A stretch of DNA of 62,950 bases, counting the filler, from Kipferlia bialata (Eukaryota), in NCBI GenBank assembly GCA_003568945.1. It is 3 parts of 3 records of this genome, joined end to end, with 100 filler letters (N's around TTAATTAATTAA, not from the genome) between each part and the next. Parts side by side here need not be neighbours in the genome. Positions count along the whole stretch, not along the records: positions 1 to 22,952 come from BDIP01000270.1; 2 more parts are not named here. The stretch is one strand, 5' to 3'. A program made the translations under genes and the position numbers. Within the stretch, counting starts at the first letter, position 1; each line of letters opens with the position of its first letter. Positions 64 to 61,395 of this stretch are shown one piece after another. The notes below the pieces were generated by a model that saw only the letters and a program-made list of their open reading frames with translations, did no database searches and was not told where the DNA came from.

Positions 64-3000
64 AGCTGTGCTGCCTAAGCTCCGTGTAGACATGCCCAAG
101 TCCCTTGGTCTGCCCCTGACCTGTGTGGGGGAGGTGTCCAGCACACCCCTTACACTCACAAACACAGGTATATATATATATTATATAACTAATGTATATA
201 TGTATATATATGTATGTATGGGTCTGACCTGTGTGGGGGAGGTGTCCAGCACACCCCTCTCACTGACAAACACAGGTAGCCTCTCTCCCTCTCTCTCTCT
301 ATACACTCTCAGTATCTGGCCTATTAGTAGTATGTCTCTCTCTTTATCTCTCTCTCTCTCTCTCTCTCTCTACACCCTTACTGTCAGGCGATGTCCCAGC
401 TGTGTATGAGTGGAGGGCCAAGGCACCCTTCTCCCTAGAGCCTAGGACAGGGGTCATTGGAGTGGGGCAGAGGTATACTTATAGTATTACAGATATACAT
501 GATGGTATATATGTGTATAGAGAGAGAGAGAGAGAGAGAGTACCCTTCTCCCTGGAGCCTAGGACGGGGGTCATTGGAGTGGGTCAGAGGTATATATATA
601 TAAAAGTATCATATGATCCTTGTACTTCTATCCTAAGTGCCCCTGTCACTCTCTCCTTCCCCCCCGAGTGATGATTGTATTTTACACATTAATAATATAT
701 AGTGTAGACAGTGACTAACCCTAGCGCCCCTGTCACCCTCTCCTTCCACCCCGAGTCGGGTGGCACAGTGGAAGGCTCTGTAGTCTGTGTCCTATCACCT
801 AGTGGGATGGATAAGGGGGTCAGTGGATCATACCAGGTAGGGGAATCGAACCCAGGACCATGTGGATATCAACTGATGTCATTAACATGTGTTTTGATAC
901 CAGGTTGTCTCTGTCTGTGGCACTGCCAAGTACGCCTACCTCAAGTGCGAGGTGGAGAGAGAGACTACCCTAGACGCCGAGGAGGACAAGGAGGTGAGAG
1001 GCGTATGAATAGTGTCTTCACCGGGAATCGAACGCTGACCCTCAGGACCTCATGAGCGGGCGCGAGAGAGGTCTTGCCGCTAAGGAGGAGGAGGGAGAGC
1101 GGTCTCTGTCCTTTGGGGATGTGGCTGTGGGTACCAGTGAGAGGAGGACATTCTCACTCACAAACCTGAGCGAGGTAAGAGAACAGGTGATAATAGTGTA
1201 GTTACTGGGAATCGAACCCACACCAGGTGCCCGTGACTGTTTCCTCTCGGCTACTGAGTGAAGAGGAGGGTAGCAGAAGGGTTGGGCCTGGCAATGCCTT
1301 CAGCGTGTCCCCCAAGGTATGGTCTCTCTCTCTCTCTCTCTCCTTGCTTCCCCTGCTACGACCTCAGTCATTGGAAGTGTGCCCTCCGTGATCTCTCTCT
1401 CTCTCTCTCTCTTTGGACCCTTACTTAACCCCAGGATGGCGTTGTTGCCCCCTTTAAGAGTGTCACCTTCACAGTGAGGCACAAGTGCAACACACCGGGT
1501 GAGTATCTGTGTCATACAATAGCTCCATGTAAATATGTAATACTATTCGTTAATAACGATTCTCTATATACCTGTGTTAATGGCTCACTCCCAGGTGCCC
1601 AGAACACTGACACCGCAGTGGTCACCACCAAGGGCGGGATAGAGACTAGGGTGAGTGGATGTGTGTCTATATGTGTCTATATCACCGTCTCTCTCCCTCC
1701 CTCTAAACCCTTAACACCAGGTCTCTCTCTCTGCCCACACCATTGGACCCACCGTGTCTCTCTCTGAGAATGCAATGTACTTCGGAGGGGTGGTACCCGG
1801 GGAGTCAAGGTACCTTCTCTCTCTTTCTATCTCTCTTTAGACCAGTTCAATTTACATGTCCCACTATATTTCCCTCCCTGCTCCACGATCTCTCTCTCTC
1901 TCTCTCTCCTCCTTGCCCCTTATATCAGGTCCCACTTTGTCTCCCTCAACTCCACCTTCTCCCGCCCCGTTGCCTTCTCTCTCTCCCTGCCCGAGGCCAA
2001 GGTATCAGAATGTGTACATATACTGTTCCTACAATATGTACCTACAATATCAGTATATATAAATTCTGACACTAGGAGAGGGACACTGGCCCAGGTGTAT
2101 CTGCACCCCTATGTGTCAGTCCCTGCAGTGGGGTGCTGCAGCCCAATACCCCCATCAGGATCAAGGTATACTCTATATGCTACATATGCTACTCTATACA
2201 GTATATAGTATATATATATATACTATAAATATACTCTATATATATACACTATATATATATATATGTGTGTGTGTCAGTCCCTGCAGTGGGGTGCTGCAGC
2301 CGAACACCCCAATCAGGATAAAGGTATGTTATGTCTACGCAATTTTCACTATATATAATATGTGTATATATATATATACTATATATATGTGTCAGTCCCT
2401 GCAGTGGGGTGCTGCAGCCCAATACACCCATAAGGATTAAGGTACAGAGCATTCACAGTATATACCATTTACTTCTATACTTGGTATATGCACCATTTGA
2501 ATGTGTGTCAGTCCCTGCAGTGGGGTGCTGCAGCCCAACACCCCAATTAGGATTAAGGTATCACATATCTACTTCGACACACAAAGATATAGATGGTTCT
2601 CTCTCTCTCTCCTCTCTCACTCTCAGGTCACTCTGTGTCCCCCCGCGTCCTGTCCACCCATGCCTGTGGGGTGAGTTCTCTCTCTCTCTCTCTCACACAC
2701 ACACTTCCTTTCTATCAATATGAATGTATATATCTATATAGAGTCACAATATAGTCTCTCTCTCTCTCCCACCTCACCATTTGGCCTAAAGCCTCTCCTC
2801 ATCGATAGATATGTAGGTGTTGTGTCTGTTGCTGGCACTGCCCCTGTCCCCTTCACATATATACTACATGCACACTATGAATGCATATAAATTTGTGTAT
2901 ATGTATGTATGTACGTCTAACGTTAGTTACGTAGGAGCAGTCTCTGTGGCTGGCACTGCCCCTGTCCCCTTCATCTGTGCTGGGTCTGTGGTGCCATCAG

Positions 3001-4748
3001 ATCAGGACAGTGTTGCCAGGTATGTATACAATATATATATATTATATTTATATTGTTTCTCTATCTCTCTCTCTCTCTGTCTCTACACCCTTATTGACCC
3101 TAGGCCTGCCTTTGTGACCCCTGCCATGGTACTCAGATACATGGGAGTCAGAGAGAGCCTATCCTTCGATGATGTCCAGAGCTGGGTCGGAAAGGTAAGA
3201 CCAATTATCCGCCTCTACAGGGATTCGAACCCAGGACCTCACCCCCAGGAAGCTGGTGACGATGACACTGACATGTCTGAGTCCCCCCTCTATGATGCTG
3301 GGTATCCCGAGTATGCTGGTCCCACACCCTCTCTGTCCTACATGCCATTGCACCCATCGTTGGGGATGGCAGCGGCACTAGGTATATAAGTATTGAATAT
3401 AGAAGTGTGTGTGTGTCATATATATATACCCTCCCTTAGCTACATGCCCTTACACCCGTCACTGGGGATGGCAGCTGCGCTGGGTATGAGAAATGTATAT
3501 ATATAGATATACATGCATATAGCTACATGCCCGTACATCCACCACTCGGAATATGTATTGATACATATATGTATTTGTATAGAGATGTATGGTGTTTATT
3601 CAATATATACTCATCCTCAGGCTTCTCCGAGGGCCCCAATGCCATGAGTGCCAGTCCCCTTGTCCTCAGCACAAGGACAGTGGTGTTCCCAAGGTCTACA
3701 GGGTTAAGGTATGGGTATATATTTGTGTATCACACGTTGGCATTCACATTTGTTCATGTACAGATATATGGAGCAATGCACTCTCTCTCCCTCTACACCC
3801 TTATTCCAGGGTCGAGAAGGAAGTCTTGGTCTCCAACACATCATCCTACCCACTGCGGTGCATTGTGTCATCAGGTAAGAGAATAATAGAGAGAGGGGAA
3901 GAGATTAGTGTAATGAGCGGGAATCGAACCCAGGACCACCCTCACCCCAGGTGGCATGGGCACAGGCCACAAGGGAGACTTCTCCCTGTCTACCGAGGCA
4001 TTCCTCGTGCCACCCAACTCTGGGTTCCCTCTCCAAGGTATTTTACTCCCTCTTCTCTCTCTCTACACCCTTATATGAGGTGTCCTGTTGCAGGTACCAA
4101 TCCCTCTCTCTCTCTCTCTTCCTACCCGTTTCCTTGAGGTGCAGTGTCATCATGCACTCTTCTCTCTCTCTCTCTCTTTCTCTAACCCCTAGTACGCTAC
4201 ACCCCCAAGAGGCTTCGTACTGTTTCCTCCTGCACCCTGACTGTGATGGCATTCACCCCTGACTGCCTGAGGTGGCAGCTGTTCAAGAGACAGGTAATAA
4301 CCTACTATATATATATATATCCATAATATATTTTACCTATTATATATATATTTGTATATATCCATGTATAATATGATATATACTGACTCTCTCAGATGGC
4401 AGCTGTTTAAGAGACAGGCATGTACATGTGTACATATACACACATATATATGTACATATTTTTCAGGCCATCTTCGCCCCCCTATTTGCCTCTATTTTTC
4501 CATTCTCTTATTTCTCTCTCTCTCTCTCTCCCTCTAATTCCTAGGCAATCCCCGCCCCCCTGTGCGCCTCCATTTCCCTTGTGGGCAGCTCTGTCCCCAC
4601 CACATCCACTCCCCCACCCGTGTCCCTGTCCCTCCACCCCACCCACTCACCCCTGCCAATCGCAAACGCAGAGGTATATATGTATACTAATAGTGGTTCT
4701 GTTTTCAACATATTCTTCCCGTCGAACGTGCAGAGCTAGATTGTCTAT

Positions 4749-4794
<46 letters not shown>

Positions 4795-5737
4795 GCACAG
4801 GTTGACCAGTACCTGTGCCTCCCCCCCTCTGCCCCAGGGTGTGCCACCTCAGTGTCTGTGTCAGTGCACAACCCAGCTCAGGTAATAATATATATATAAT
4901 ATATATATAATATACGTATATATTCATATACTCTTTGTATATGTCATGTAGTGATATAGTCTCCTCCTTATCTCAGGACCGCATGGTTGTCCTTCCAGAG
5001 GGCATGTACCTCTACACCCTTATTCTCTTCTACACCCTTATCTCAGGATCCCATGGTTGTCCTCCTAGAGGGCATGTCCCTAGGCACCAGTGGAGACACC
5101 TCAACACAGTGGACACCAGGAACAGGGGTATGTACTCATAAAGTACACCCAGCGGGAATCGAACCCGCATCTCACCCCCAGGCAAGCGGCCTCCTCCTGG
5201 CAGACACTGACGTCATCGCCTTACCCCCTGGTGCCAGTAGTGTCATCACACTCGCTGGGGTGCCCCCTCAGCACTCTCTCCTCGGGAGGTACGTCTCTTT
5301 CTCTCTCTCTCTCTCTCTCCATGTACACACAAACATTAGAGAGGTCATATATACTCTTTGAAGAACCTCGGAAGGTACCCTTACTGCTCCTCTCTCTCTC
5401 TCTATATATATACTCTTTGAAGGTACGTTTCATGTCTCTCTCTCCGAGTGTAACATTTGAGCGATATCATTTGAATACAATGATATATTTTATTCTTTCT
5501 TCCTATTTCTCCCTTATTGTCAGAGCAAAGTCCAAGAGTGCCGAGAGCACCATACCCCTGACACTATATATAATATAAATATTAATATCTATATCTACGT
5601 TAGAAGATATTTTGCTCTCTTCTCTAACTGGCGCCTTACTGTTAGGGGAAGGTCCAAGAGTGCCGAGAGCACCATCCCCCTCAGGATGAGGCTGAATGCA
5701 TCCAGTAACAGTGTGGTCAGTTGCAAGGTATACACTC

Positions 5738-5770
<33 letters not shown>

Positions 5771-6488
5771 GCATATATATCCCCCTGAGGATGAGGCTGA
5801 ATGCATCCAGTAACAGTGTAGTCAGTTGCAAGGTATGTTCTAACATAGACAGTACTTTTGTTTGCTTGCCCTCACATCCCTAATACCAGGTCATCCCCTC
5901 TGGTTCCCACTCTCTCTCTCTCTCTCTCTCTCTCTACCCCCTTACTTCCAGGTCATTCTCTCTGGCTCTACCCCTGACATCCGTGTGAGGACAGGGCTCG
6001 AGACAACACCTCTCGTCACTGGGAAGGTACCGTGAGTATGAACAGTATACTCATTTCCAAATTGATATGTGATGTAATATGAAGTCACATGTTGTTGCAT
6101 GGTGGAAAATATTGTTTCATTAACATATTGAAGTATACTATTAGTACTGGTCTCCGTATACTTATTGTAGAGTGGCCCCCGTATGCACCGACCCATATAC
6201 TGTATATGAGTGACCTCTCTCTCTCTCTCTCTCTCTCCCTCTCTAGTACTAGTATATTGTACTTACAGCAGGGTGGCCCCCGTATACACAGACCCATTGT
6301 TGCCCTGCCCACTGTGTCTGTGGGCAGCAGGGTCAGTGCGGTACTGTCACTGGTATCTAGGTTAGTAATGTAATGGTATATATATGCAAGTATATATACA
6401 GTGTATATATATATTATACTAGTATATATGCCCTGCCCACTGTGTCTGTGGGTAGCAGGGTCAGTGCTGTGCTGACACTGGTGTCAAG

Positions 6489-6519
<31 letters not shown>

Positions 6520-9443
6520 CCCCCCCCCTCTCTCTTACTCTCTCTTACTCCTAGGGCCTCCACCCCCACTGACATATCCATCCGTGCCCCCCTGTGCTCT
6601 GGACTGGACTGTCTATCCATATCACCAGAGGCACTGACACTCGGACCTAGAGAGACAGCGCAGGTATATTAATATATGCATCAATATATATATATTAATA
6701 TATACTATTGTACGTATAGTGTATATATAGTAGTATATCACCAGAGGCACTCACACTTGGACCTAGGGAGACAGCGCAGGTATGTATATATATACTGGCA
6801 TTGAGTGTTGTGAACTATATATGAATTGTGTGTCCTAACCCCCAGGTTCAGGTCACTCTCAGAGGTGACACCTTTCCCCCTTCATATACATAATCATTCA
6901 TATATATATTTGAATATTTCTCTTATATTTGTTATATGTACTCACTGTTAGGTCCAGGTCACTCTCAGAGGTGACACCTCTCTCCCTCTGGGTCCCTTTG
7001 ACGAGTCACTGTCCCTGTCTGTCACACCAGGTGTGTGTGCGTCTCTCTCTATCGCTCTCTCTCTACATATGTATATATTCTAATGTATATATATATGTAT
7101 TGGGTCCTATCCTCACCCCAGCTGGCATGGCACCATCACCCCTTTCGATCCTCAGGGCATTGGGATCAGGTATAGCAACATATGTATAGAATATATACTG
7201 TATATACTATATATATATTATTAATGTTGGCATGGCACCATCATCCCTCTCCATCCTCAGGGCACTGGGATCAGGTATGCATCTGTATATGTATATATGT
7301 ACTGTATATATACTATATATATATATATAGTATAGTAGTTGGCATGGCACCATCACCCCTGTCCATCCTCAGGGCACTCGGATCAGGTATGCCTCAGTAT
7401 ACGTATAAATATATGTATATATATGTATTACTGTATATCAATATCTATAATAGGTATATATACCCTCTGTCAATCCTCAGGGCACTCGGAACAGGTATAA
7501 CTGTATATGTATACTCTATATACTCTCTCTCTCTCTCTCTCTCTCTCTTACTCTTAGGTGGAACTGCCCTGCCTGCCAGTGCCTTCCCTGCCCCCCTGTC
7601 AGGTGTAGTAGAGACAGAGGAGGAGGAGAGAGAGAGAGAGAGCGCCATGGTCAGACTGGTGGGAGAGGTGGTACGCAGAGACGTCACGGCTGAGCCAGCA
7701 AGGTAAGAAAAGAAGAGAGAATGTACCAAGCTGGAATCGAACCCACAGCCTCCTAACAACCAGACTGTCCCTGGACGCTGTCAAGGAGAGGGAGGAGGTC
7801 TCCTTTATCGTGACACTCCATAACAACGTGGCTAGCGCTGTGCCATTTGCTGTGCAGATGGATGAGGGAGAGAGAGAGGACATGGAGGGTACCAGTAAGG
7901 GTGTAGCCTCTTTGAATAAGGGTGTAGTGCCCTTTGGCTCTGTGGAGCAGGGGACTGGGCATGTCATGGTGGAGCCTTGCTCAGGTACATATGTATATGT
8001 ATACACACACCCATATGTATATATATATAGAGAGTGAAAGAGAGATAGGGAGCATGTTATGGTGTAGCCATGCTGATATATGTATCAGTAGTATGAATTA
8101 TTCTCACTCTCTCCCCCTCTACACCCTTAATATCAGGTGTGATCCCTGCCGATGGCAGAGTGAGACTCTTTGTCAAGTACTCCCCACAGCGGCTCGGCCT
8201 GATCAGGTACCCAGCTCTACGTTTCTCTCTCTCTCTCTCTCTCTCACACCCTACACCCTTTTCTCACAACTAGGGCCTCTCTCAATGTCAACCTCTCTGC
8301 CTCTGCCCTCTCTGGTGTATCTCTCTCTCTCTCTCCCTATATTTATACAGACTTACCCCCAGGGCCTCTCTGAATGTCCACCTCTCTGCCTCTGCCCTCT
8401 CTGGTGTGTGCACCGGAGGAGAGGATGAGGGGGAGAGAGAGAGAGATGACGAGTGTGGTGCAGTGGTGAGGGTACCCGTGACACTCGAGGCTAGACTGCC
8501 TAGCCTACTGATCAGGTATGTATATGAACACACTGGGAATCGAACCCACGCCCTCCGAGTCTAACACTAGCACGGTTGCCTCCAACTGCACCTCCACCCA
8601 GCTCTATGACTACATATATGTACACACAGGGAATTGAACCCACGCCATCTGAGTCTAACACTAGCACGGTGGCCTCCAACTGCACCTCCACCCAGCTCTA
8701 TGACTACATCGATGTCAATGCACTCAACAGACACCTGCAGGGAGAGAGAGACATACACGAGATCACTCTCACAGAGGGTATGGGTGTATTAATACATATT
8801 TATATGACCAAATTGTACATATATATATGGGGAATGTGTATATGTTGAGATATACCCTCATTGCTACAATATTCTTGATGCTTACACCGATATAGTTAGT
8901 ATGTGTATTGTTATGTGCTTACACCTAGGTACCTTGCAGGAGCAGCAACTTGCTCTGGAGCACATTGAGACGTTCCCAGTACTGTTCAGGTATCTCTCTC
9001 TTGCAACCTCCACTCCTAAGGAATTGTATGAAAATCTATCCTTCACTCGTCTTCCTAGGACTCTTTAGATACATGTGTCTCTACCTCTCTCTCCACATTA
9101 ATTGTTTACTCACTCCAGACCCTCTGTCCCTGCCTCCACACCCCTCCTCTCTCCCCCCCCCCCCTATGTATGTATATATGTAGCCCATTATAGTTTCTAA
9201 TCCTAGGCCCTCTGTCCCTGCCTCCACCCCCCTCCCTCTGGGTGCACCCTGTGCAGACCCAGATGCTCATAGGTATATGTATAGATAGAGAGAGAGATTG
9301 ATATATAGAGAGGTAGAGAGGTTGATAGATATAGATATATTTGCATGTGTATATATACATCTTCCACTGGGTACACCCTGTGCAGACCCAGACGCTCATA
9401 GGTATAAGGATAGATGTGTATATATAGAGAGAGAGAGAAAAGA

Positions 9444-9486
<43 letters not shown>

Positions 9487-9767
9487 CATCTACCACTGGG
9501 TACACCCTGTGCAGACCCAGATGCTCACAGGTATGTGTATATATACTGGTAGATATATATTAGTATATATATTATATCTTGTTAACGTCCCTCTCACTCC
9601 CAGCACTGACAGGGTCACCCTGGGACTGGAGAACCCTGGACCACTCACGGTACGTCAATGATACATATAAGTGTATGCATATACGTATATAGTGTATATA
9701 CTGTATGTATCCTTATACATCAGGTCACCCTCAGTATATCTGTCCCAGGTGTGCAGCAGGACATGCC

Positions 9768-9808
<41 letters not shown>

Positions 9809-10010
9809 CTAATATCAGGTCACTCTTCGTATACCTGTCCCAGGTGTCCAGCAGGACATGCCCTCTCTCTCTCTATATATATATATATATTTATACTAAT
9901 ATCAGGTCACCCTCCGTCTATCTGTCCCAGGTGTCCAGCAGGACATGCCCACTGCACCATGGGCCAAGCAGCCACCTACTAAGGTATGTATAGTATATAT
10001 ATAGCACATA

Positions 10011-10047
<37 letters not shown>

Positions 10048-11997
10048 TTGTGTATATACTCTATATATATACTTGGACATGCCCACTGCACCATGGGCCA
10101 AACAGCCACCCACTGAGGTGTGTGTATTGTTTATAGTATAGTACACATTGTGTATGTGTGTTCCCTGTGTCCTAACTCGCGTTATTCTCTATGCTAACTC
10201 GCGTAGGAGGAGGCCACCATCCGTATGTATGTAGACAACGGTGTCTTTAGCACCTCCTCTGTGACTGTCACCCTGGCCCCACAGGAGAAGGGGCGGATAT
10301 CACTCTTCCATAGGCACATATACAGGTATGTATATGTATATATATATATATACAGGTATATAAATGTGTATGTATACTGTCACCCTGGCCCCACAGGAGA
10401 AGGGGCGGATATCCCTGTTCCACAGACATATATACAGGTGTGTGGATGTATATTCATATATATATATATGGGTATATTAATGTATATGTCAACTGTCACC
10501 CTGGCCCCACAGGAGAAGGGCCGGATAACACTCTTCCACAGACATATCTATAGGTGTTGTATGTAGTGTATATACAAAATTACATATAGACATATATACA
10601 TAGGTGTATATATATATGGTACATGTGGCATTTCATGAGAAGGGGAGAATATCTCTCTTCCACAGACATATCTACAGGTATGGAAGAATATATCCTTCTC
10701 ACTCTCTCTGTCTGTCTCAACACCCTTAATGTCAGTGGGGTGCATGAGCTCCGTCTGCTCTCTCTCTCTCTCTCNNNNNNNNNNNNNNNNNNNNNNNNNN
10801 NNNNNNNNNNNNNNNNNNNNNNNNNNNNNNNNNTCTCTCTCTACACCCTTAATGCCAGTGGTGTGCATGAGCTCCGTCTGCTCTGTCAGGTGGATGACGG
10901 GAGGGCATTCCTCCTATTGCTGTTAGGTTAGTAATAATATATATATATGTAGTATGTACATATACTGATACTGAAGTACTCTCCCTCTCTAACCGGCAGG
11001 CCAGACCCTTAACACACACACACACACGCGCTCTCTCTTTCGCTCTCTCTCTCACTCTCTCCCTCCCTCTCTAACTGGCAGGTCAGACCCTGACCACTGC
11101 ACGTGTCCCCACCCCGTCCTATCTCTATTTCTCTCTCTCTCTCTCTCTCTCTACACCCTTATTCTCTCTCTTACCTTCAGGTCAGACCCTGACCACTGCA
11201 CGTGTCCCCACCCCGTCCTCCCTCAGAAGGCCTACCCGCTCCAGAGAGAGACTGTCTGCAACAGGTATATTGTACCAATGCTAGATTCCGGGAAAATACA
11301 TTCTCATGGGCTAACGTGGATACAAGTTCTACGCACTATCATCTCTGTAAAGAGAGACTATTGCGTGCTTCTGAGTGTATACCAACTCCAGGTGCCAGCA
11401 GGCGTGGCATGTACACCAGGGACGCAGAGAGAGAGGCAGAGGCAGAGGGCACAGCCTCCCCTGTCGTGCTGACCCCACTCTCACTCCCACTCGTACCAGT
11501 GGCACTAGGTATGTATATATATACACAGATATATGTATTCATTCCACTCATTCCACTAACATTGTACATATGAATATACAGTATTAGTATTGTGGGTATA
11601 TACTTATGCCATGTATATTAACCCCAGGCGAGGCCTGTCCCCCTGTGCAGCTCCTGACCCTGTCCAACCCAGCGGCAGAGCCAGTGGTGTACTACATACC
11701 TCAGGTAGTGTGTGTATATATTATTATTCATATACGTATATGTATGTATATATGTGTGTTCATGTATATACTCTGTCCAACCCAGCTGCAGAGCCAGTGG
11801 TGTACTACATACCTCAGGTAGTGTATATATATATAAAGATATTAATGCATATGTGTATGAATATATGTGTGTCCTTGTATATACTTTGTAGATATGTGTA
11901 TTGTGTGTGTGTGTTGTGAGAGTATGTGAGTCTCGCTCTCCCCCCTTCAGCTACCTTGACTCTCTCTCTCTCTACATATATACATATATACACACAC

Positions 11998-12028
<31 letters not shown>

Positions 12029-13272
12029 AGATCAACTACCTCTTGGCTGGGATGACTCACTCTCTACATTTATATGTGTGGCTAATTCCAGACTGCTCTT
12101 GACAAGATTAACTCCCTCCTTGGCAGGGCTGACTGCCCAGTGCTGCACGTACTGAACCCCCTCGGCATTATCCCAGGTTGGTGTACTTACTGTACAGTTA
12201 TAGTATATGTATACATATAAATATATATATAGAGAGAGAGAGGGTCAGAGCTGACCGATACTAGCCATGGATATTGTATGGTATTGTTTCTATGTTAAAG
12301 TACACACATATGTATCTAACCCCTCCTGATGTCCGAGTCCTCCATAGTCCCTATTCTCTCTCTCTGTCTCTCTCTAACCAAAGGCCACTCCTCTACCGAT
12401 GTACGTATCCTCCACAGGCCCCTACAGGCATGCAAGTTCAGAGTGCCCCTGCCCATACACGTCATGTCCCAGGTACTCTCTCTCTCTCTCTCTCTCTGTA
12501 CACCCTTTATAGGTTACTGTATGAAGATTTTGCCCCTGATGGGAATCGAACCCATGGCCTCCCCCCTCTAATAGTAGGCCTCTGCGTCTGGTGCCTCCCA
12601 GGATGATGAATATACAATTACTATTTTTGCCCCTGATGGGAATCGAACCCATGTCCTCCACCTTTTCATACTAACCCTAGGCCTCTGCCTCCGGTGCCTC
12701 CCAGGATGATGTGGCACCAGTGGAGGTCACAGAGACACAGCTGGAGGTACGTAAATATAGATATGTGTGTGTGTACGGTATGGGGAGAGAGAGGGAGAGA
12801 GAGACTAGTGGATTTGACGGAGACACAGCTGGGAGTGTATTTAATATTTGTGTGTAGATATAGATACATGGGTAGAGAGAAATGTAAAGGGCCCACGTAC
12901 TTCTCTCTCTCTCTGTCTGTTATAGGTATATAGTGAAATTTCTCCCTTTCTAACACCCTTACCCCAGGGTGTGTATGACCTGCTTAACTCGCGGTTCGGA
13001 GGAGACAGGGAGAAGGAGAGCGTCACAGGTTAGATTGATATGGTATATGTTTGTAGTAAGACTCTATTGATGTGGGCTCGATCCGCGCTGAGTATATGTA
13101 TATTCTAGATAGGCTGAGTATATATTCTAGTCGTTGTGTCTTCCCCGAAGTGCTTCTGGGAGGACCAGATATACGACTCATCATTTAGTACTTGTACAAG
13201 TATTAGTCTTACCCTCACTCCTAGGCCCTGACACTGTTACCTTCAGACCCACCGGCATGAACATAATAGTAT

Positions 13273-13303
<31 letters not shown>

Positions 13304-13449
13304 AGTATATATACATATAATACACACTATCATATATACATATATGTGATATGCTATCAATAGGCCCTGACACTGTCACCTTCAGACCCACTGGCATGAT
13401 ATACATATACACATATTACATAGCTATATAATGAATTGGACATTTTATG

Positions 13450-13487
<38 letters not shown>

Positions 13488-13584
13488 CATTAGTATGCTT
13501 ACCCCTAGGCCCCGACACTGTCACCTTCCGCCCCACTGGCATGAACAGTCCCAGCAGAGTAACAAGGGCATTGCAGGTATTGAC

Positions 13585-13616
<32 letters not shown>

Positions 13617-16600
13617 CATACTCCTTATACATATAGTATATATATGTGTATATATACATATACAAATTTCTATATACCACTGGCATGAACAGTCCCAGCA
13701 GAGTAACAAGGGCATTGCAGGTATTCTACACCATGTTTCCTATATTTTACATATACTCTATTACTAATGTGTTCCTACTAACCCCCCAGAGATCCAGGGC
13801 CCGTTCCCAGATGAGGGACAGAGAGTATATATATATAACATAATAAGTATATATAGTATATTTAACCCTCCAGAGGTCCAGGGCCCGATCTCAGCTGAGG
13901 GACAGAGAGGCAGATAGGGAGGAGGGAGCACTGGTGCTAGGAGACGATATGGAGAGGTAATGTGTATATACTCTCTCTCTCTCCCTCCCGAGCCCCTTGT
14001 CATCAGTAGCAGAGGTCCTCCCCTGCCCTTAGATATATATATATGTATGCGTATGTTTTAATGAATATGTATATGTATAATCGTTACCACTTACTTATAC
14101 CAGCAGAGGATCTAGCCCTGCCCTTGGGTCTATCCCCCCCCCCCCCCCCCCTTTCTCTCTTCCCCCCCCCCCCCCCATAGCCCCTTATCATCAGCAGCAG
14201 AGGATCCTCCCCTGCCCTTGGGTCCAGGGGTGGAGACATGGGCACTAGGGATAATGCCCCCACCCCCTTTGCCACTGTGGAGATCATCGGTCTATCCTAC
14301 GACCCTAGGTATAGTGTACCTATATATACATATATATACATATGTGTGTATACAATCTGCCGCTTACTCTTAGGGAGCTTCTCATCGAGCCGTCCCAGCG
14401 GTCCCTCAGTGCTCTCTCCCTCCCACCCCACCTCTCTCGGTGCGAGGTGGACAGGCCCCTCAGGTCAGTATATACCTCTCTCAATATAGTATATCAGTGG
14501 TACATTTACACTAGTGTATTCATATATAGCTATACCGATAAAGAGGTGGACAGGCCCCTCAGGTCAGTAATTATGTATATGTGTGTACTATATCAGTGCC
14601 CACACTATCTGTGGCTCTCTCTCTCTCTCTCTCTCCACCCATGTGTCAGTGGTACCCTCACTGTTGGTGGTGCCCTCTCTCTCTCTCTCTCTCCCCGCCC
14701 CCCGACAGTCTTCTCTCTCTCTCTATTTATGTATATGTATGTATACCTTATTTCAGTGGTGCCCTTACTGTCGGTGGTGCACTAGGCTGTGAGGGAGTGG
14801 GACTCGCCACACTCAGTGCTGGAAAGGTACTTGCTAGTAATTGACTATGTACATAATACTATATTGAGAGATAGTGTGTGTGGGTGTGAGGGAGTGGGAC
14901 TCGCCACACTCAGTGCTGGAAAGGTATATACATGTATACTATATTATATATACTATTGTATATATACTATAGTTTATATACTTATACATAGCGGGTGTGA
15001 AAGTGGGACTCGCCACCTTGAGTGCTGGAAAGGTATGTTTATATATATATATATACTAAATATATAGAATATACTATGTGCTGTATGTGTATATATAGTG
15101 GGTGTGAGGGAGTGGGACTCGCCACACTCAGTGCTGGCAAGGTATATACATACATGTATATAAGTATACTGTTATATATATGCAATGATATATACGCTAT
15201 TTTCACTATATTCACTATATGTTTATATGTCATTATTTTATATTGTGTAGGCTGTGAGGGAGTGGGACTGGCCACACTCAGTGCTGGAAAGGTATACAAT
15301 ACAGTATATCTAGCCTCTCATCATTCTTCCACTGCTCTTCAGTGACTCTCTGTCTCTCTCTCTCTGTCTCTCTCTCTCTCTCTCCCTTTCTCACTCTAGG
15401 TCTCCTTCTGCGGTGTGCCCTGTAACTCAGTGTCCAGTACCGTACTGACTGTGGAGAACACACACTGCGAGCCCATCAGCTTCAACATCATAGAGCCACA
15501 GTCACTAAAGGTATAGATATAAGTATACATGTCCTTTGGCATATATTCAATTGTGGATAGTATTACATTTGAAGTATATACCAACTGCCACTAACCTCAG
15601 GGCTTTGGCCACCTGTCTGCCTCCCCATCCTCTGGCACACTGGCAGTCGGAGGGACCATCAATGTGAAGGTATTGTCATCACTGCTTGTATATACCTCTA
15701 TTCAAATACGTATATATTTCTGTGTATACATATTGATATATACACCTATATTGACGTCAAGGTTGAGTTGCACGTGTACGACGTCCCCGTTGCCATCCTA
15801 GATGACATCGGTGTGCACGTGGAGGCCCTAGGTACAGGTGCCAGGGTATCAGACGACAGCTCCTGGCAGACCTCTCTCGCCAACACATCCCGCACCATAG
15901 AGCACTCCATGAACGGTGCTATCTCGCGTATGTCTGATGTCGGTGGCGGCATGCGCCCAGAGTCCTCTACTAGAGGTGGGAAGGGCGCCCCTAGCAAGCT
16001 GGCCTGTACCATAGAGGAGCGCCTCACTGGGTTCAAGCCTGTTGCCAACGAGGACACCCTCTATGCCATCCTCTGCGTGCACTCTCACTTGTCTAATGCC
16101 CTGCCCCTGTACGAGGGTGCCCCCAGTGGCCTGTGTGCATCCAACAACGCCATATGCGTACCCACCGTGGTGCCAGGTGGTAAGCCAGCCTCATATACAC
16201 CAGATGCCCTACTAGTGGGGTCTGTCGTCAATGAGCTGGTCTCCGAGGCTCCAGTTCAACAGTACGTCGCTAGTGCAGTCGCCCACGGTCCTGCCCCCGC
16301 TGCCTACCAGGTCTTCGGAAGTCAGGCGACCGCTGAGACCTCTGAGGACTATGAGGGTGTAGACGGTGACTTTGAAGAGAGGCAGGGAGAGAGAGAGGTT
16401 GCAAGAGAGAACGTGGACATTGACTCTCTGGAGTACGCTGCCAATATCGGAGGGGAGGCGGCGCTCTCATTTGATATGGTTGCAGATGCAGTGGATTACG
16501 AGGTTAGTATGTCTATATCTCGCATTATTTGATAGTGTTGTATCTATATCTCGCGTTGATTTCACTAATATCAGGTCATGTATGCACTTGAGAGTGTCTT

Positions 16601-16775
16601 CAGAGGTGTTGTCTCTGACGTTGTATCTGGTGCCGAAGAGGGAAAGAGAGAGGATACTGCTGAGTATGATAGGTACGAGGAGACTGCTCCCCTAGAGTAT
16701 GAGGGAGAGGGAGAGGGGGAGAGAGAGGATGACTACTATGCAGATGAGCTTGCTCAGAAGAGCATGGCCCGGTAG
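64..16775 (+). CDS. Very large multi-exon ciliary protein with tandem Ig/ASH-like domains, CFAP65/CCDC108-like; 5' end outside window
   Basis: Manually spliced GT-AG exons give repeated ASH/PapD-like segments (e.g. STPLTLTNTG-DVPAVYEWRAKAPFSLEPRTGVIGVGQ; LSFGDVAVGTSERRTFSLTNLSEVPV; VSPCSGVLQPNTPIRIKVTLCP), a large exon at about 15762-16503, and an acidic C-terminus ending TAG at 16775. The family call comes from recalled CFAP65 architecture, not a database search. Confidence 0.6.
2111..2560 (+). repeat. Exon-end plus donor-site echo array (4 copies)
   Basis: TGTGTCAGTCCCTGCAGTGGGGTGCTGCAGCC...AAG|GTA at about 2111, 2269, 2387 and 2501, separated by (AT)n-rich spacers. Confidence 0.9.
10775..10833. 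other. Scaffold gap inside a (CT)n microsatellite
   Basis: N run flanked by CT repeats, with no linker sequence. Confidence 0.9.
14786..15295 (+). repeat. Exon-end plus donor-site echo array (5 copies)
   Basis: GGnTGTGAGGGAGTGGGACTnGCCACACTCAGTGCTGGnAAG|GTA at about 14786, 14882, 14993, 15100 and 15250. Confidence 0.9.
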
Positions 16776-16962
16776 TCACAGTGTATTCAATAGAACATAG
16801 AAATGTGTGTTTCTGGAACACTATATGTTGTGTATACTGTGGGAGTCCATCAGTGGACACGAAGAACACGAGAGGTAGAGAAAGAGACCCAAACGCATAT
16901 ACTTGTGTACTCCCCTACTATATTTGCCATGATGTGACACTGATTTCATACAATGAAGCTGG

Positions 16963-20347: not shown

Positions 20348-20389
<42 letters not shown>

Positions 20390-22528: not shown

Positions 22529-22560
<32 letters not shown>

Positions 22561-23127: not shown

Positions 23128-26100
23128 GTCCCCACTACTCCAGGTGCCCCTGGTGCATCCAGTACATCCATATCTGGACTGGACAGAGGGAAGGTAGGGT
23201 ATATGTGTATATATAGACATGTATATAGACATGTATATGCATATGTAATATAGTACTGGTATATGCATGTATTTCATATGACTCTGGTGCCTCTAGCTCA
23301 TCCATATCGGGAGTGGACAGGGGGAAGGTAGGGTATATGTATAGACATATATATAGTATAGTAGTGGTACATATGCATGTACTATATGTGACTCTGGTGC
23401 CTCCAGCACATCCATATCGGGAGTGGACAGGGGGAAGGTAGGGTATATCATCATGCATATATATGTGTATATGATATAGTAGTGGTATATGCATGTTCTT
23501 TTATGACTCTGGTGCCTCTAGCACATCCATATCTGGACTCGAGAGGGGGAAGGTATTGTTTATGTATTGATATCAATATTGATTCCAGGTTGTTGTCCAC
23601 ACCCCTGAGCGCCTCAGGAACAGAGAGAGGGTGAGTAGTCCAGCACATCCATCTCTCTCTCTCTCTCTCCCTCCCTCTCTCTCTCTCTCTCTATATCTAT
23701 ATGTGTATGTATGTATGTATGTACATATGTATCTTACCTTCAGGTGAGGCAGAGGGGCAAGGAGGACGGGTTTGTGAGGCAGACTGTCATCAGAGACCTC
23801 AACATACCACTCCCTAAAAGGGACACGACTGGGGTATGTATGGTATATACTCATTCACTGATATGTATATATGTATACGTATTCCTATCACTCACTCTCA
23901 GGGCAAGAAGAATGGTATTTATATATACATATATATATATGTACGTATGTATGGAGAGTACTCACTCTATATATGATTTTATGTATATATGTATCTGTCA
24001 CTCACTCTCAGGGCAAGAAGAGACGTTCATCTTCTACTGGCAAGGGGTCCCTCCGTGACGCCAGGTAATACTAACACTTCTTTTGTAATTTCGTTGCTTC
24101 TCCCCATTGGAACCAGCCAGTTATTAATATATTATATATATTTATTTTATATTATATATATTTATTGTATTTATGAGTCTAACTCATCTTCTGACCGATC
24201 TGACTAATCCTGCTATATTCAATATTGTAATGAATTTGTGTCGAATTTTGTATTCTTACTCACTGTTCCTTTCTCACCCCAGGGAACCACCCACCCCCGC
24301 TCACCCTGCGTCCCAAGAGAGACAGACAGAGAGGGAGAGGGAGGAGGAGAGAGAGGAGGAGAGAGTGGTGTATACTGGAAAGGTTGATAGCAGCTCAGGG
24401 GGGGGATCTGTAGAAACTGCAGAGAGGCCTAAGCGTCAGATGTCTGCTAAGTCTATAGGGAGGGAGAGAGAGAACCCTCCACGCAGTATGGCCGTGTCGC
24501 GGGAGGGGGTTAGGGAGAGGAGGAGGGAGAGAGGGGAGTACAGTGATGATGAGATTGATGTGCCACCCCCTGAGCTCATGGCACTCTGCGACATGGAGAT
24601 ATACACACCTAGGTACGTGTAATATATTGCATTACCATATTAGTTAGTCTCTGACTAAACTTCACTCTTAGTACTGCTCTCTCCATTTCTCTCTGTGTGT
24701 ATATCCGAATATTTTCACCTTAGTACTGCACCCGGGACCCCCCAGACACCCCCACTCAGACATATCCTCTCTCTCTCTCTCTCTCTTTACCTCTCTCGTT
24801 TTGACTGAATGTGTACTTTTATATATATATATATGCTCACCTCAGTACTGCACCTGAGACCCCCCAGACCCCTCCACGTGCAGTTAGGCGCAAGGGAGGA
24901 GCCAAGTCTGGAAGAGGGGAGAGAGAGAGAGAGAGAGGCAAGGTGAAGCCAAGGCGAGGGGAGAGTGAGAGACAGCCCATGACTCACCGCCCGAGACAAC
25001 GGTCCTCTGAAGTCAACAGGTCTTCTGAGGTCAAGAAGCCTCGCAGACACTCTCTGCTGCCCCACCAGGCTGTTGTGGGGGATAGCCTAGAGAGGAAGAA
25101 GGCTAAGGGGCCAACACCTATCCCCACAGGTATTACTATTGTCTTCAGTATCGTACAATCTATAAGACATTGCTATTGTACTGACTATTTCAGTATTCTC
25201 CCTCTCCCTTCCCTTCCTGACTAACTCTTACTCACTTATCCTATGCGTATCAATTATGTATATAGTTGCTTCATTAAAACTGAAGGTGTTTGTATAGACT
25301 GGTAGTATAAGACCTTATCCCAGGTTGTGACTGTCCGTCCTCCTATGCCATGCATCTGTTAATATATATAGTTGGTATACATATATAGTTGGTATACAAT
25401 TATTGTATTTACTGATAGAGGTACTTAGATGATACATATATGATCTTATCTTATTCTAGGTCGTGACTCTCCGTCCTCCTATGCCATGCGTGGCCATGTG
25501 TACAAGGGAGGGGACGAGGCTGTAGGTAGAACTATATGTTAGTGTATAAAGTATGTATACTAGTGATATATACTATGTGTGTAGACTCATTTACATACTA
25601 CGTGGCCATATGTACAAGGGAGGGGACGAGGCTGTAGGTATGGACATATTAGAGTGTAAATGCATGTGTACCCGTATGTATATAGGTGAGTATATAAGCG
25701 TGGCCATGTGTACAAGGGAGTGGACGAGGCTGTAGGTGTGTATGTGTATATTGATATTCATACAGTATATGTACTCTCACGTCTCTTCCAATATTCCATA
25801 TATATCTCTCTTATCGTTTATATAATGAGTCTGACCTCTAGGCGTGCAGCGGGTTGTCTCCTCCTCCCAGTTGGCGCAACTTCAGCGAGATAAGGAGAGG
25901 GAGAGGGAGAGAGAGAGAGAGAGGAGCAGAGGGGGTGTGCAGCCTGTGAGCCTTGGCGATGGACTTCCGACGATGCCAGAGAGAGAGAGAAGGAGGGAGA
26001 GAGAGAGTATGCAGAGGACGGAGGCCTCACAGGGTGGCTACGACTCTAGGGAGTCTTCTTCGGTTGTGGTTAACACTCAACCATCTGAGAGAGAGAGAGC

Positions 26101-26179
26101 AGGAGAGAGAGATGAGTATGGCTATGAGGAGCCAGAGTGTCTCTTACCTGATGACTCAGATTCAGAGTCCAGCGATTGA
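23128..26179 (+). CDS. 3' part of a multi-exon low-complexity (ER/S/R-rich) hypothetical protein
   Basis: GT-AG bounded exons, e.g. VRQRGKEDGFVRQTVIRDLNIPLPKRDTTG and 24283-24612; last exon ends ...PDDSDSESSD* at 26179. Confidence 0.55.
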
Positions 26180-46161: not shown

Positions 46162-49100
46162 TCCTTCGAGGTGCTCTGGGACTCCAGGCTCAACACACCT
46201 GGGAGTGTACTGTGCAATGCATCACACCGGTCCAGGTATGTATTTGTATATGTGTTCACGTGCTCTCACTCTCTCTTCGATATATGTATCGGCACTCCTA
46301 TCACTGTCTGTATCTCACTCACCCCTTTAGGTTCTACCTAGCCCTCCGCACCAGCACTGGATGTATGGTGGTCAGTGGCAGGGAGAGGGAGAGAGAGGCG
46401 CCCTTGTGGACAACGGTATGTGACCACTACTCTCTTATACACATACACAATCATATCCCTTACCTCAGATAGAACTGCATGATGGAGTCACCCCCTACCG
46501 CATGATTCTCTCTCTCTCCCCCCCTTTCTCTCCCTAACATCAGCTTGAGTTGCATGATGGCGTCACCCCCTACAGCATGATTCTCTCTCTCTCCCTCTCT
46601 CTCCCTAACCTCAGCTTGAGTTGCATGATGGTGTCACCCCCTACAGCATGGTTGTATCCTCCCACATCGGTGTGGTCACTCAGAGAGAGGATACCGCAGA
46701 GGGAGAGAGAGAGAGAGAGATGGACGATGGTGATGTGCGTTCCACCTCGTATACCGAGAGTGACAGTGAGGGAGAGGGGGAGAGGGAGACAGAGAGAGAC
46801 CTGCTGTGGCTCCTGTGTCCTGAGAGGATACTCGTCTACGATATAGCACTCGGTGAGTATGGGCATGTCTCTCAATCGTGGAACTCTATATGTTGTAATA
46901 CTCTATTACTCACCTAATAGGCACTCTTGTATGCTCTCTCTCGCACATCCAGATTGAGAGGGAGAAGGAGAAGGGCGGCAAGAGGCGTGAGCGTCTGTCA
47001 GTGCGTGACGTTGTCTCTCTGACCCCCTCCCCTTCTTCCTACCCCCTGGTACTCTCTGGGTCTGGGTCTCTATACACTCTGGCGGAGGGTGTACTGGAGG
47101 AGGAGGAGGGTGCAGAGGGAGAGAGAGAGAGGGGCTATGTCTGCAAGAGAGTGGCCAAGGGCGTCATGGTGGCCGGTACTGCCAATGCGGTGGTCCTACT
47201 GGGAGACAGAAAGGGACACAAGGTATACAGGGAATCGCATATATATATATATATCATATGCGCATTCTACGTATGTATGCGTGTATACTGTCCATTTCCC
47301 CCCCTCATCCTCCAGGACGGCTCTGTCACTGTCTACCCCCTCTCTTCCAGACCTGTCACCCTATCCCTACCTCTTAGGGAGGGGGAGAGGTGCACCGCCG
47401 TTGGGGCAGGTATCATTGTGTGTATAAGTATTCACTATATGGTAGTTTAATGTTGCGAAGAAGACTGTTTCTTTGACACGTATTATGTTGCATTTCTGGG
47501 AACTAGATATGTTCAGTGTATGTGTACCTCTCTCTCCTCACCCCAGGTCTCTCCCTAGTGTGTGTGGGCACCAGCATGGGATCCATCTATGTATACGACA
47601 CAAGGTAAAGACAGCTACGATGAGAAACATCTCTGTGTTTTCCCCTCTATATGTTTACCTATGTATGGAATATGAATCACTTATATATGTGTTTCTGATA
47701 TAAGGGATGACGAGTGTTCTCTTGTCGGCACCCTCCATCCATCAGAAGGGACAGACAGTAAGAGAGAGGTGACTGCCTTATCTGTCCTGACAGTTGGTAC
47801 AGACACATACCTGTGCAGCAAGGGAAAGGGTGCAGAGAGGGTGCATCTGTACAAGATACCCACTGCCACTGATGCAGAGAGAGACAGGGAGAGTGAGAGG
47901 GAGAAGGGGCTGGTGCCGGTACCAGTGCCTGTAGGGACAGAGGTATGGGTGTGAATATTCATTATTTCATAATTGTATATATATATATGGAGAGATAGAG
48001 GTTGAAAGGGGTACAAATGTATATATGTATAGGTCTCTTTGTATACGTCTAATTATCAGGCCGTTGTGACTGGTGGCAGGGGCCTCCTTCTGTGTCACAG
48101 ACCACCCACCCCCTCCCCCTCTCCCTCTCTGTCCCTGTCCCTCTGTGCCCCCCTGTCCATGAGTGCAGCAGGCAGACTGGCCACAGCATGTGCCTCAGGG
48201 ACAGTGAAGGATATAGAGAGGATGCTCAGGTATGACATTGTGTATATGTATATGTGATTCCATTATTGTTATAGTGAATATATTAGTAGAAGACGGTGTC
48301 TCGCTTGGATATACCCAAGGGAGGCCGACCCCACCCCCATATTGAATTATATACAATGTAGCATACACAGTGTATATATCTACTCTCTCTCACCTCAGGG
48401 AGGCCGAAGCCCCTCTCCTCATTGCACCCCATGCCGTGGTGTCAGCAGTGCTGTTTGCGGCATATGAGGCCAAGCTGAGGGCAGAGAGAGCCAGTGAGTC
48501 AGGGTCATACATAGTGACAGAAGAATCAGGTATCTCTCTCTCTCTTCCCACACTTCAGACTGAGACTCATATATCAATGGATATATGTATACACTTACTT
48601 ACACCCAGCAGAGGGAGAGAGGGACACCTTTGCCCAGAGGCACCAGAGGGAGAGGGAGAGAGAGAGAGAGATGGTGCACGGGGAGAGGCACAGAGAGATT
48701 GAGAGAGAGGCCGTGGCCAAGCTCGACGCCCTTCTCGAAGGTACTATAGTCTCACGATTTATCATTTACTACACGACACCAGCACTAACTCGATAGGCGG
48801 CATCCTGCACCCCTCTGGTGCTGGTCTCACCCACTGTCCTGTGTATACAGTAGGGGGAGTGTGCATAGACCCCATGGAGGTGCTGCTGGATAGGGCACCC
48901 CCTAGCCCCATGTGTCGAGATACATCAGTATCCATGCCTGTGCTGCACCTGGCAGTGCTGCTCGATAACGCACCGGTAGTTAGGTAGGGGGGGTGTATAC
49001 TTTCAATTGTACATGTAAACGTGGCCTCACCCCCATGTTCAGAGACATCCTTTGACAACCCTATACTTATTAACACGTACCTGTGTATATATACGCAGTA

Positions 49101-55100: not shown

Positions 55101-55355
55101 ACGTCCATCTCGGGTGCCATTGTGCACATGACTGTACTCTACTTCCGGATCTCCTACACTGTCTGTATATATACTTGTCCGTGCCATCTTATCCTCAGTG
55201 ACACCTCCATCTCCGCTGCCATTGTACATATGACCAGTGACACAGAGAGAGAGACAGAGGCAGAGAGTGAGGCAGATGCCGCAGAGCATGCCCTCCAGAC
55301 ATCCCTGGACATATCCACGCCCAGGACACGGCAGACATCCTTGCTCATTGGACAG

Positions 55356-55394
<39 letters not shown>

Positions 55395-60757: not shown

Positions 60758-60799
<42 letters not shown>

Positions 60800-61152
60800 C
60801 TCCTCATCCTTCTCACTAGTAGGTGTGCAGAGAGGTCTTCAGCACCACAGTTCGCAGACACCATTGCAGGTATGCTTGTACCATTATACAATGTAATGAC
60901 AACACTTCCATCACTGTTACACGTACAAGTTCACTATTACATCTGCTGGCTCTTACTCTAGGAACTGTGGCCGTGTGATATGCGATGAGTGCTCTATCAG
61001 AAAGGTCCCAATCACAAAGTTCAGACGCAAGGTATGCCTCTTCTCTCTCTACTTCTCTTCATAGATATATATATATATATATGTGTGTTTATGTGTAGCA
61101 ACAGTGCATGTGTGTATTCTTCTCGACATCAGGAGAGGGGGTTCAAGGAGTG

Positions 61153-61193
<41 letters not shown>

Positions 61194-61395
61194 GGCCCTC
61201 TTGCTTCCTCTCTATCTGGGCATGTGTCCATACCATTCTAACCAGGAGCGTGTGTTCAATGTATATATATATTGTATTATTCTATAAAGATATACATCTC
61301 ATCCTCAGGAGCGTGTCTGTAAGCAGTGCAAGGCAGCAGGTGGCCTGGATGCACTGACCCAGTTCAGATACTACGCCACACCCAACCAGTGGTAG
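46162..61395 (+). CDS. Giant multi-exon ankyrin-repeat protein with C-terminal FYVE zinc finger (possibly more than one gene; 5' end missing)
   Basis: Ankyrin motifs GRTPLLTAL, GRTLLHLAAQAG, GDVALHVAAREGH, GTPLHVACRAN, GKTPLILAVYH, GRTPLVLSVES. Terminal FYVE: GWVPDESAPKCQVCREVFSTTVRRHHCRNCGRVICDECS...ERVCKQC; stop TAG at 61393-61395. Confidence 0.8.

What the first reader, a model, noticed from the sequence alone, without database searches (positions are those of the whole stretch)
3327..3552. Intronic exon 'echoes' that diverge almost only at synonymous sites
Seen in sequence: the exon end at 3327-3381 (CCC TCT CTG TCC TAC ATG CCA TTG CAC CCA TCG TTG GGG ATG GCA GCG GCA CTA G|GT) recurs inside the following intron at 3429-3483 (CCC TCC CTT AGC TAC ATG CCC TTA CAC CCG TCA CTG GGG ATG GCA GCT GCG CTG G|GT). 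Eleven of 18 codons differ, yet both encode PSLSYMPLHPSLGMAAAL, including a Ser TCC/AGC switch. The echo keeps the 5' splice site but is preceded by (GT)/(AT) repeats with no acceptor at its start. A third, more decayed copy starts at about 3520. Inference: a neutrally decaying duplicate should not preserve the peptide. Echoes may cycle into coding position by recombination or deletion, be spliced in by a non-canonical route, or be captured from very divergent alleles. I do not recognise this as a described system.
Basis: partly seen in the sequence, partly recalled or inferred. Interest (0 to 1): 0.88.

Follow-up and report, generated by a model that had tools for sequence, protein, structure and literature searches.

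The report
Introns archiving diverged allele exon halves
In a free-living single-celled eukaryote, a third of the introns examined hold a stray copy of half of the neighbouring exon that differs from the real exon almost only at silent positions, likely because these copies are exon halves of other, very different alleles left behind by recombination, which would make one genome a record of outcrossing and extreme diversity in the species.

Summary
The window is Kipferlia bialata DNA. 41 of 123 modelled introns hold 61 same-strand copies of the adjacent exon half, against 0 of 1452 control scans; 57 keep GT or AG. Copies differ from the exon at 86/434 fourfold sites but 17/780 second positions (ratio 0.11; 0.17 with looser ends). 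Neighbouring intronic copies differ at 28/114 versus 1/221. Duplicate-and-decay gives at least 0.33; conversion or pop-out in a clone gives about 0.5 or more.

Structurally these match amphioxus 'mirages'. This scan noted similar silent-biased copies in sea urchin and called them expected; that explanation fails here.

Best reading (about 0.55, inferred): the copies spent most of their divergence as coding alleles and were captured or refreshed by recombination in an outcrossing population with silent diversity near 20%.

The focal echo is atypical: it alone of 35 has a real-range acceptor, which also accounts for the TCC/AGC switch. No reads were available, so expression and phasing are untested.

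The parts
64..16776 (+). Host gene, CFAP65-like ciliary protein (5' part missing); 56 exons, 55 introns, 28 with echoes (43 echoes)
   Evidence: Model; identical to P0121; Pfam CFAP65 Ig and ASH domains; catalogue
3249..3381 (+). Exon 15, the coding exon; donor GT at 3382
   Evidence: donor at 67th percentile
3382..3428 (+). AT/GT-repeat spacer between real donor and echo
   Evidence: donor-side spacers as a class are 75% AT and 50 nt or longer
3429..3483 (+). Focal echo of the exon-15 end; acceptor-like AG at 3438-3439; donor GT at 3484 (9th percentile)
3521..3550 (+). Third, decayed copy (SYMPVHPPLG), same AG register, no donor; closer to the echo (6 nt) than to the exon (11 nt)
3621..3708 (+). 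Exon 16, true acceptor of this intron
2270..2557 (+). Stack of three donor-side echoes of exon 2076-2165: four distinct versions, no amino-acid change, two three-state sites, incompatible site pairs
10376..10677 (+). Stack of three donor-side echoes of exon 10207-10325; spacers 1 and 2 alignable (82%)
14885..15291 (+). Stack of four donor-side echoes of exon 14757-14826
5524..5832 (+). Exon 5646-5727 with an acceptor-side echo upstream (5524-5559) and a donor-side echo downstream (5779-5832) that are complementary halves of the exon
23128..26179 (+). Second gene (8 exons modelled, 423 codons open): 7 echoes in 4 of 7 introns, including a three-copy stack at 23284-23552 with 84-91% alignable spacers
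46162..61395 (+). Third gene (58 exons modelled, 2571 codons open; ankyrin/FYVE-like by eye, label recalled, not scanned): 11 echoes in 9 of 57 introns, including the stack at 57929-58089

Best explanation
The echoes are real half-exon-plus-splice-site duplicates lying in the adjacent intron, and their exon part likely comes from other, strongly diverged coding alleles of the same gene, put or kept there by recombination, so that selection would have acted on them while they were coding elsewhere and not in their present place. SHOWN in the sequence: (1) polarity: exon ends recur only in the following intron, exon starts only in the preceding one; (2) intact splice dinucleotides; (3) about 20% silent and about 2% second-position difference from the exon, and 25% against 0.5% between echoes; (4) up to four distinct versions in one stack, with incompatible site patterns; (5) one preferred internal breakpoint per exon; (6) silent difference highest next to the splice site. 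INFERRED: a break or template switch inside an exon is repaired on a diverged homologue, where only exon sequence can pair. Synthesis runs through the splice site into a TA-rich piece of the donor's intron and is joined back inside the old exon, so one allele's exon half stays coding and the other's is stranded. Later unequal exchange and conversion with coding alleles would expand stacks and overwrite echoes faster than they decay. This needs silent diversity near 0.2, conversion some 20-25 times faster than mutation, and recombination between lineages (sex or parasex). The spliceosome is inferred to use the splice site nearest the intact exon and to ignore the orphan site. The echoes need no function of their own.
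For:: 61 echoes, 0 of 1452 control scans; differences by codon position 34/17/145; fourfold 86/434, second position 17/780 (donor-side 54/267 and 3/493); echo against echo 28/114 and 1/221; the pattern holds in three genes on three contig segments and for each of the four bases; snapshot-and-decay with the same detection gives a ratio of 0.33 or more in 99.5% of runs; two coding alleles with short non-coding time reproduce both ratio and divergence; in a clone the ratio is 0.5 analytically (0.49 and 0.69 forward); with between-lineage recombination it is 0.09-0.10 analytically at coding silent diversity about 0.2 (0.20 in a small forward run); spacers within stacks are homologous in 7 of 21 pairs (82-91% in the clearest), so junctions are old relative to echo decay and echoes must be refreshed or have been coding; stacked copies share breakpoints (median 2 nt, null 9.7, P=0.003); the two kinds on one exon meet near one point (P=0.013 for 9 exons, 0.036 for 6); third-position difference 26%, 18%, 12% with distance from the splice site, flat in simulation. 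PMC8516963 (passages): metamonads lack canonical NHEJ and are argued to depend on homologous recombination.
Against: No second allele or strain was seen. Two metagenome scans found nothing and both test proteins are single-member clusters, so silent diversity of 0.2 and outcrossing are deduced, not observed. No reads were available. The ratio depends on where echo ends are drawn: 0.17 overall with looser ends, and the second gene then gives 0.41 (not below 0.5). Acceptor-side echoes are less clean (0.26). Three echoes in an incompletely modelled minus-strand gene gave 1/10 and 2/31 and were left out of the final count. The spacer is usually no more like the terminal intron piece than unrelated introns are (5 of 64 above the control 95th percentile), and flank similarity does not track silent divergence (rho -0.06), which a single one-step capture does not by itself explain. 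A crossover-only model predicts the opposite gradient. Co-occurrence of both kinds on one exon is not significant within the focal gene alone (P=0.18). Echoes are not independent of each other, so P values are optimistic.
Confidence: 0.55

Rival explanations
1. Echoes are translated: an unusual RNA-level route (or a transient DNA rearrangement) swaps the echo for the exon half in part of the mRNA, so selection acts on them directly.
For: It would give the codon pattern without any population assumption. Echo donors score as high as real donors (9.36 against 9.43; 0 of 35 mismatches at the last exon base). The focal echo has an acceptor at the 21st percentile, and joining it to internal donors after 3301 or 3310 keeps the frame.
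Against: 34 of 35 donor-side echoes lack a real-range acceptor. An in-frame GT/AG route exists near the far end in only 7 of 64 (about 12 expected by my rough estimate, not a computed control). The focal internal donors are at or below the 1st percentile, and use as a cassette shifts the frame into a stop. The annotated protein matches the exons throughout, though that is a gene prediction.
Confidence: 0.13
2. The donors are a few long-diverged homologues or homeologues within one cell lineage (ancient hybrid or asexual diploid), exchanged by mitotic repair; no outcrossing population is needed.
For: Silent divergence is fairly uniform across echoes (dispersion 1.46, against 1.85 or more in 95% of exponential-age simulations), as two fixed subgenomes would give. 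It also escapes the 0.5 floor.
Against: Stacks hold four distinct versions with three-state sites, more than two haplotypes supply while echoes are still undecayed. No second copy of either test protein is in the collection.
Confidence: 0.12
3. Assembly artefact: haplotypes of a mixed culture strung together at repeats.
For: No reads could be examined. Units (median 112 nt) are near short-read length; 30 of 61 exon/echo pairs share an exact run of 21 nt or more and 10 of 33 nt or more, so copy number and order within stacks could be wrong. PMC3087553 reports one mis-assembled mirage.
Against: The spacer-to-mid-exon junction is new sequence: 24% identity in the 20 nt beyond the far end, so it cannot arise by a jump between two echo-free haplotypes. 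No run reaches 55 nt. Junction-side spacers are shared with divergence between copies. The three modelled genes stay in frame through 8, 56 and 58 exons. Decayed copies exist. A published K. bialata assembly reports one eukaryote coverage peak (PMC5874029, passage); whether this window is that assembly I did not establish.
Confidence: 0.08
4. Ordinary mirage: a same-allele duplicate that keeps an older version of the exon and decays, or cycles with the exon by conversion or pop-out within a clone.
For: Known layout (PMC3087553). Decayed copies exist.
Against: Simulated ratio at least 0.33, median about 0.58; clonal floor about 0.5; two non-coding copies differ at 28/114 fourfold sites but 1/221 second positions.
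Confidence: 0.04

Closest known systems
Amphioxus 'mirages' (Adh3, globins BflGb6 and BflGb9, troponin C, PGBD5): PMC3087553 and PMC3902484, passages read; the original Adh paper PMC117041 is not held and was not read
   Same: Tandem duplicates spanning an exon-intron boundary, of both 5' and 3' kind, often keeping AG/GT, units 10-160 bp, reported not to disturb splicing.
   Different: Reported there for a handful of loci; here in 41 of 123 introns. The word 'synonymous' does not occur in either main text. Here copies differ almost only at silent sites, intron parts are often unalignable, and breakpoints are shared between the two kinds.
[quoted passage not shown]
   Same: Non-coding exon copies in introns, often with splice sites, proposed to re-enter coding position by recombination.
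   Different: Whole repeat-module exons, often inverted, confined to receptor families under diversifying selection. Here half exons of ordinary single-copy genes, adjacent, same strand, with purifying pattern.
Intron gain by tandem duplication of splice-site-bearing sequence (Rogers model; mirage exonisation model of PMC3087553 Fig. 7 legend)
   Same: The focal echo has both an acceptor-like AG and a donor, and could become an exon if an internal donor strengthened.
   Different: 34 of 35 donor-side echoes lack the second site; the annotated splicing ignores them.
Mutually exclusive tandem exon duplicates (recalled)
   Same: Intronic exon copy with synonymous-biased divergence.
   Different: Those are complete exons with both splice sites; echoes cover about half the exon and carry one site.
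Gene-end replacement by integrating elements, e.g. phage 21 at icd (recalled, not checked)
   Same: Incoming DNA supplies a silently diverged gene end and strands the old one.
   Different: No mobile element or common spacer family was seen here; donors appear to be alleles.

Membership tests
Mirage repeats | Tandem duplicate spanning an exon-intron boundary | tested here: met
   61 anchored echoes, 0 of 1452 controls
Mirage repeats | Both 5' and 3' exon boundaries can be duplicated | tested here: met
   35 donor-side, 26 acceptor-side
Mirage repeats | Many copies keep AG/GT | tested here: met
   57 of 61
Mirage repeats | Unit length of tens to about 160 bp | tested here: met
   70-158 nt for 62 of 64, median 112 (first catalogue; one of the two longer values spans a copy that catalogue missed)
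Mirage repeats | Concerted evolution within clusters | tested here: inconclusive
   Spacers homologous in 7 of 21 pairs, but copies differ from each other as much as from the exon
Mirage repeats | Normal splicing undisturbed | not testable with these tools
   No RNA reads; only the annotated protein agrees
Mirage repeats | Copy number varies between haplotypes or somatically | not testable with these tools
   No second haplotype found
Mutually exclusive or cassette duplicate exons | Copy has both acceptor and donor | tested here: not met
   1 of 35 donor-side echoes has a real-range acceptor; that one shifts the frame as a cassette
Ectocarpus-type exon shuffling | Whole modular exons of a repeat family, also from other loci | tested here: not met
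   About half exons; no match to sampled non-adjacent exons of the same gene
Ectocarpus-type exon shuffling | Inverted intronic copies | not tested
   All self-comparisons were same-strand only

The most novel reading that the evidence does not exclude
Kipferlia routinely repairs or recombines its exons on highly diverged alleles and strands the displaced half-exon in the intron, so that a single genome carries thousands of 'fossil alleles'. These would show outcrossing and roughly 20% silent diversity in a free-living metamonad, and mark a general, undescribed route of exon-half replacement that may also underlie mirages in highly polymorphic animals.
Probability: 0.45. Interest if true: 0.85.

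Novelty: new variant of a known kind. Interest (0 to 1): 0.72.

Why it matters
Sex and population diversity are unknown for free-living fornicates (my search on Kipferlia with sexual, recombination and population listed 5 papers, none on this by title or abstract start). If echoes are stranded alleles, silent diversity, recombination and conversion rates can be read from one assembly, with a direct test in a second isolate. Full-strength orphan donors in a large share of short introns also say something firm about how this reduced spliceosome chooses sites. The echoes inflate introns and can seed new ones, which bears on whether Kipferlia's roughly 125,000 introns (PMC5874029, section read) are ancestral or recent. 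If instead the echoes are translated, that would be a new RNA-processing route.

Tried and rejected
No whole genome is held for this window, so the genome-wide count could not be made. No sequencing reads were available, so expression, phasing and heterozygosity are open.

A protein scan (224 pattern matches, none confirmed) and an intron-motif scan (0) of the metagenome collection found no related strain.

Mutation-spectrum or composition bias was rejected: second-position differences are low for each base (2/160, 8/250, 5/167, 2/203) against fourfold (20/92, 32/184, 19/82, 15/76), and in the wrong frames the signal inverts. Detection bias was rejected by simulation. GC at fourfold sites shows no monotonic trend with distance from splice sites (0.52, 0.59, 0.62, 0.62, 0.56), so a mutation halo is neither shown nor excluded. 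AT drift in echoes is weak (57 against 48).

The first catalogue (looser ends, 64 anchored of 67) missed some copies through its complexity filter and was replaced. The minus-strand gene near 19.6-22.9 kb was dropped because its model did not stay in frame past four exons. Genes between 27.3 and 46 kb were not modelled, except part of one minus-strand gene; a self-match scan there found only one weak 21-nt candidate.

Ten literature searches listed no paper on silent-biased intronic half-exon copies or on such repeats in Kipferlia; most subscription papers are not covered. PMC117041 is not held. No supplements were read; those of PMC3087553 hold mirage alignments that could show whether amphioxus copies are silent-biased.

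Full report
Setting. The window is intron-dense eukaryotic DNA in three segments joined by N linkers. An exon of a proteasome gene and the long exon of the focal gene are 100% identical to proteins named Kipferlia bialata; the next proteasome hit is 70% identical. No whole genome is held and no reads were available. I modelled four genes by hand. The focal gene (64-16776, 56 exons) gives one 1942-codon frame, identical to annotated protein P0121, with CFAP65-type Ig domains. Two other plus-strand genes are open for 423 and 2571 codons, and five exons of a minus-strand gene were modelled.

The observation. Confirmed as written, with one correction. The AG of the echo's AGC codon is a plausible acceptor (score 8.4, 21st percentile), so four of the 12 differences may be splice-signal sequence. 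The other eight, in 42 nt, are all silent (1 of 200,000 random placements; 546 of 200,000 if only four had to fall on the echo).

It is general. A codon-blind scan anchored at splice sites found 61 echoes in 41 of 123 introns (28/55, 4/7, 9/57, 0/4) and none in 1452 scans with non-adjacent exons. Exon ends recur in the following intron (35) and exon starts in the preceding one (26); the only 'wrong-polarity' hits were two near-complete copies of one 48-nt exon. 57 of 61 keep GT or AG. Echo donors score like real donors; echo acceptors are weaker (8.0 against 11.0, P=0.012). Where both kinds share an intron, donor-side copies come first in 4 of 4, so no false exon forms. Echoes are 20-62 nt; units have a median of 112 nt; donor-side spacers are TA-rich and at least 50 nt.

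The silent bias. Differences by codon position are 34, 17 and 145. Fourfold sites differ at 86/434 and second positions at 17/780 (ratio 0.11; donor-side 0.03, acceptor-side 0.26; nearest copy only 0.14). With looser ends the ratio is 0.17 overall and 0.41 in the second gene. Three echoes in a gene I could not close gave 1/10 and 2/31 and were dropped from the final count. Neighbouring echoes, both non-coding, differ at 28/114 fourfold sites and 1/221 second positions. Echoes within a stack are not independent, so P values overstate certainty.

What cannot explain it. A duplicate that keeps an older version of the exon and decays gives a ratio of 0.33 or more under the same detection (median about 0.58). 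Conversion between exon and echo in a clone, with replacement changes lethal in the exon, gives 0.5 analytically and 0.49-0.69 forward. Pop-out deletes the echo it exposes, so surviving echoes are unselected (inference). Base composition and detection bias were excluded.

What can. The ratio falls to the observed range only if the echo's lineage spent roughly nine tenths of its divergence as coding sequence, or if echoes are translated. In the two-copy model, adding recombination between lineages gives dS about 0.24 and ratio 0.09-0.10 at coding silent diversity about 0.2, with conversion some 20-25 times mutation; a small forward run gave 0.20. Stacks hold four distinct versions with three-state sites and incompatible site pairs in 3 of 4 large stacks, as recombining alleles would. 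Spacers inside some stacks are homologous at 82-91%, yet the echoes stay clean, so one-time capture is not enough and refreshing or repeated capture from coding alleles is needed.

Clues to the molecular route (inferred). Stacked copies begin within a median of 2 nt of each other (null 9.7, P=0.003). On exons with both kinds, the two are near-complementary halves (mean offset 6.4 against 12.5 nt, P=0.013 for 9 exons; 6.0 against 12.0, P=0.036 for 6). At least 20 nt of exon is left un-echoed in 48 of 49 exon ends, as a pairing anchor would need. Silent difference falls from 26% to 18% to 12% away from the splice site and is flat in simulation. This fits repair of a mid-exon break on a diverged homologue with run-through into its intron. 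Metamonads lack canonical NHEJ and are argued to rely on homologous recombination (PMC8516963, passages). Loose ends: spacers seldom resemble the terminal intron piece (5 of 64 above control); flank similarity does not track silent divergence; a crossover-only model predicts the reverse gradient; and echoes are patchy, with almost none seen between 27.3 and 46 kb.

Rivals. Translation of echoes has no general canonical route, but the focal echo is the exception: joined to weak internal donors it keeps the frame, as a cassette it hits a stop. A pure assembly artefact cannot create the spacer-to-mid-exon junctions, though stack number may be unreliable. A few diverged homologues in one lineage fit the fairly uniform divergence but not four versions per stack or the single-member clusters.

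Comparison. The layout is that of amphioxus mirages (PMC3087553, PMC3902484; passages); the lead came from earlier notes of this scan. It meets the structural tests; splicing neutrality and copy-number variation could not be tested. It is not a mutually exclusive exon and not Ectocarpus-type shuffling (PMC3341825; passages). In PMC5874029 (passages and one section) the word 'duplicat' does not occur and 'repeat' occurs only in unrelated passages among those shown. PMC6679479 (passages) reports a reduced spliceosome in this species and no snRNA candidates. Ten searches listed nothing on the silent-site pattern; the original mirage paper could not be read.

Verdict. Real, widespread and not explained by ordinary duplication. 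A new variant of a known kind of repeat, most likely stranded alleles (0.55). Interest 0.72.

Noticed in passing
841, 1023, 1207, 3220, 3919, 5154, 7732, 8535, 8629, 12541, 12638, 26865 (+); 27052, 27390 (-): A 13-nt word (GGGAATCGAACCC type) occurs 14 times against 0.07 expected, all in introns, 13 of 14 on the gene's sense strand and mostly shortly before an acceptor. It resembles the reverse complement of a tRNA T-loop/B-box (recalled); ARAGORN finds no tRNA. Possibly a tRNA- or SINE-derived intron family.
   Followed up: partly
3429-3483: The focal echo is the only one of 35 donor-side echoes with a real-range acceptor; a candidate for exonisation or intron gain in progress.
   Followed up: partly
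7228-7274 and 7340-7386: Near-complete copies (47 of 48 nt) of exon 7122-7169 with donors; the second has an in-register AG but no pyrimidine tract.
   Followed up: partly
19600-22950 (-): Minus-strand gene with very AT-rich introns and many echoes (several acceptor-side copies near 21800-22060). The model did not close, and its three scored echoes were not silent-biased.
   Followed up: partly
27300-45990: Several compact genes (proteasome subunit, others labelled by eye only) with almost no echoes; one weak candidate at 29282/29353. Echo density varies strongly between genes.
   Followed up: partly
introns throughout, e.g. 361-380, 3071-3103, 8111-8136, 10834-10858: A recurrent CT-repeat plus CTACACCCTTA word just upstream of many acceptors, likely the branch-point context; absent from the metagenome collection in the form searched.
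   Followed up: partly
51117: A GC-AG intron is needed to keep the third gene in frame; one echo donor at 4418 also reads GC.
   Followed up: no
22953-23052 and 45992-46091: N-run linkers with a short stop-codon word: the window joins three separate contigs.
   Followed up: yes
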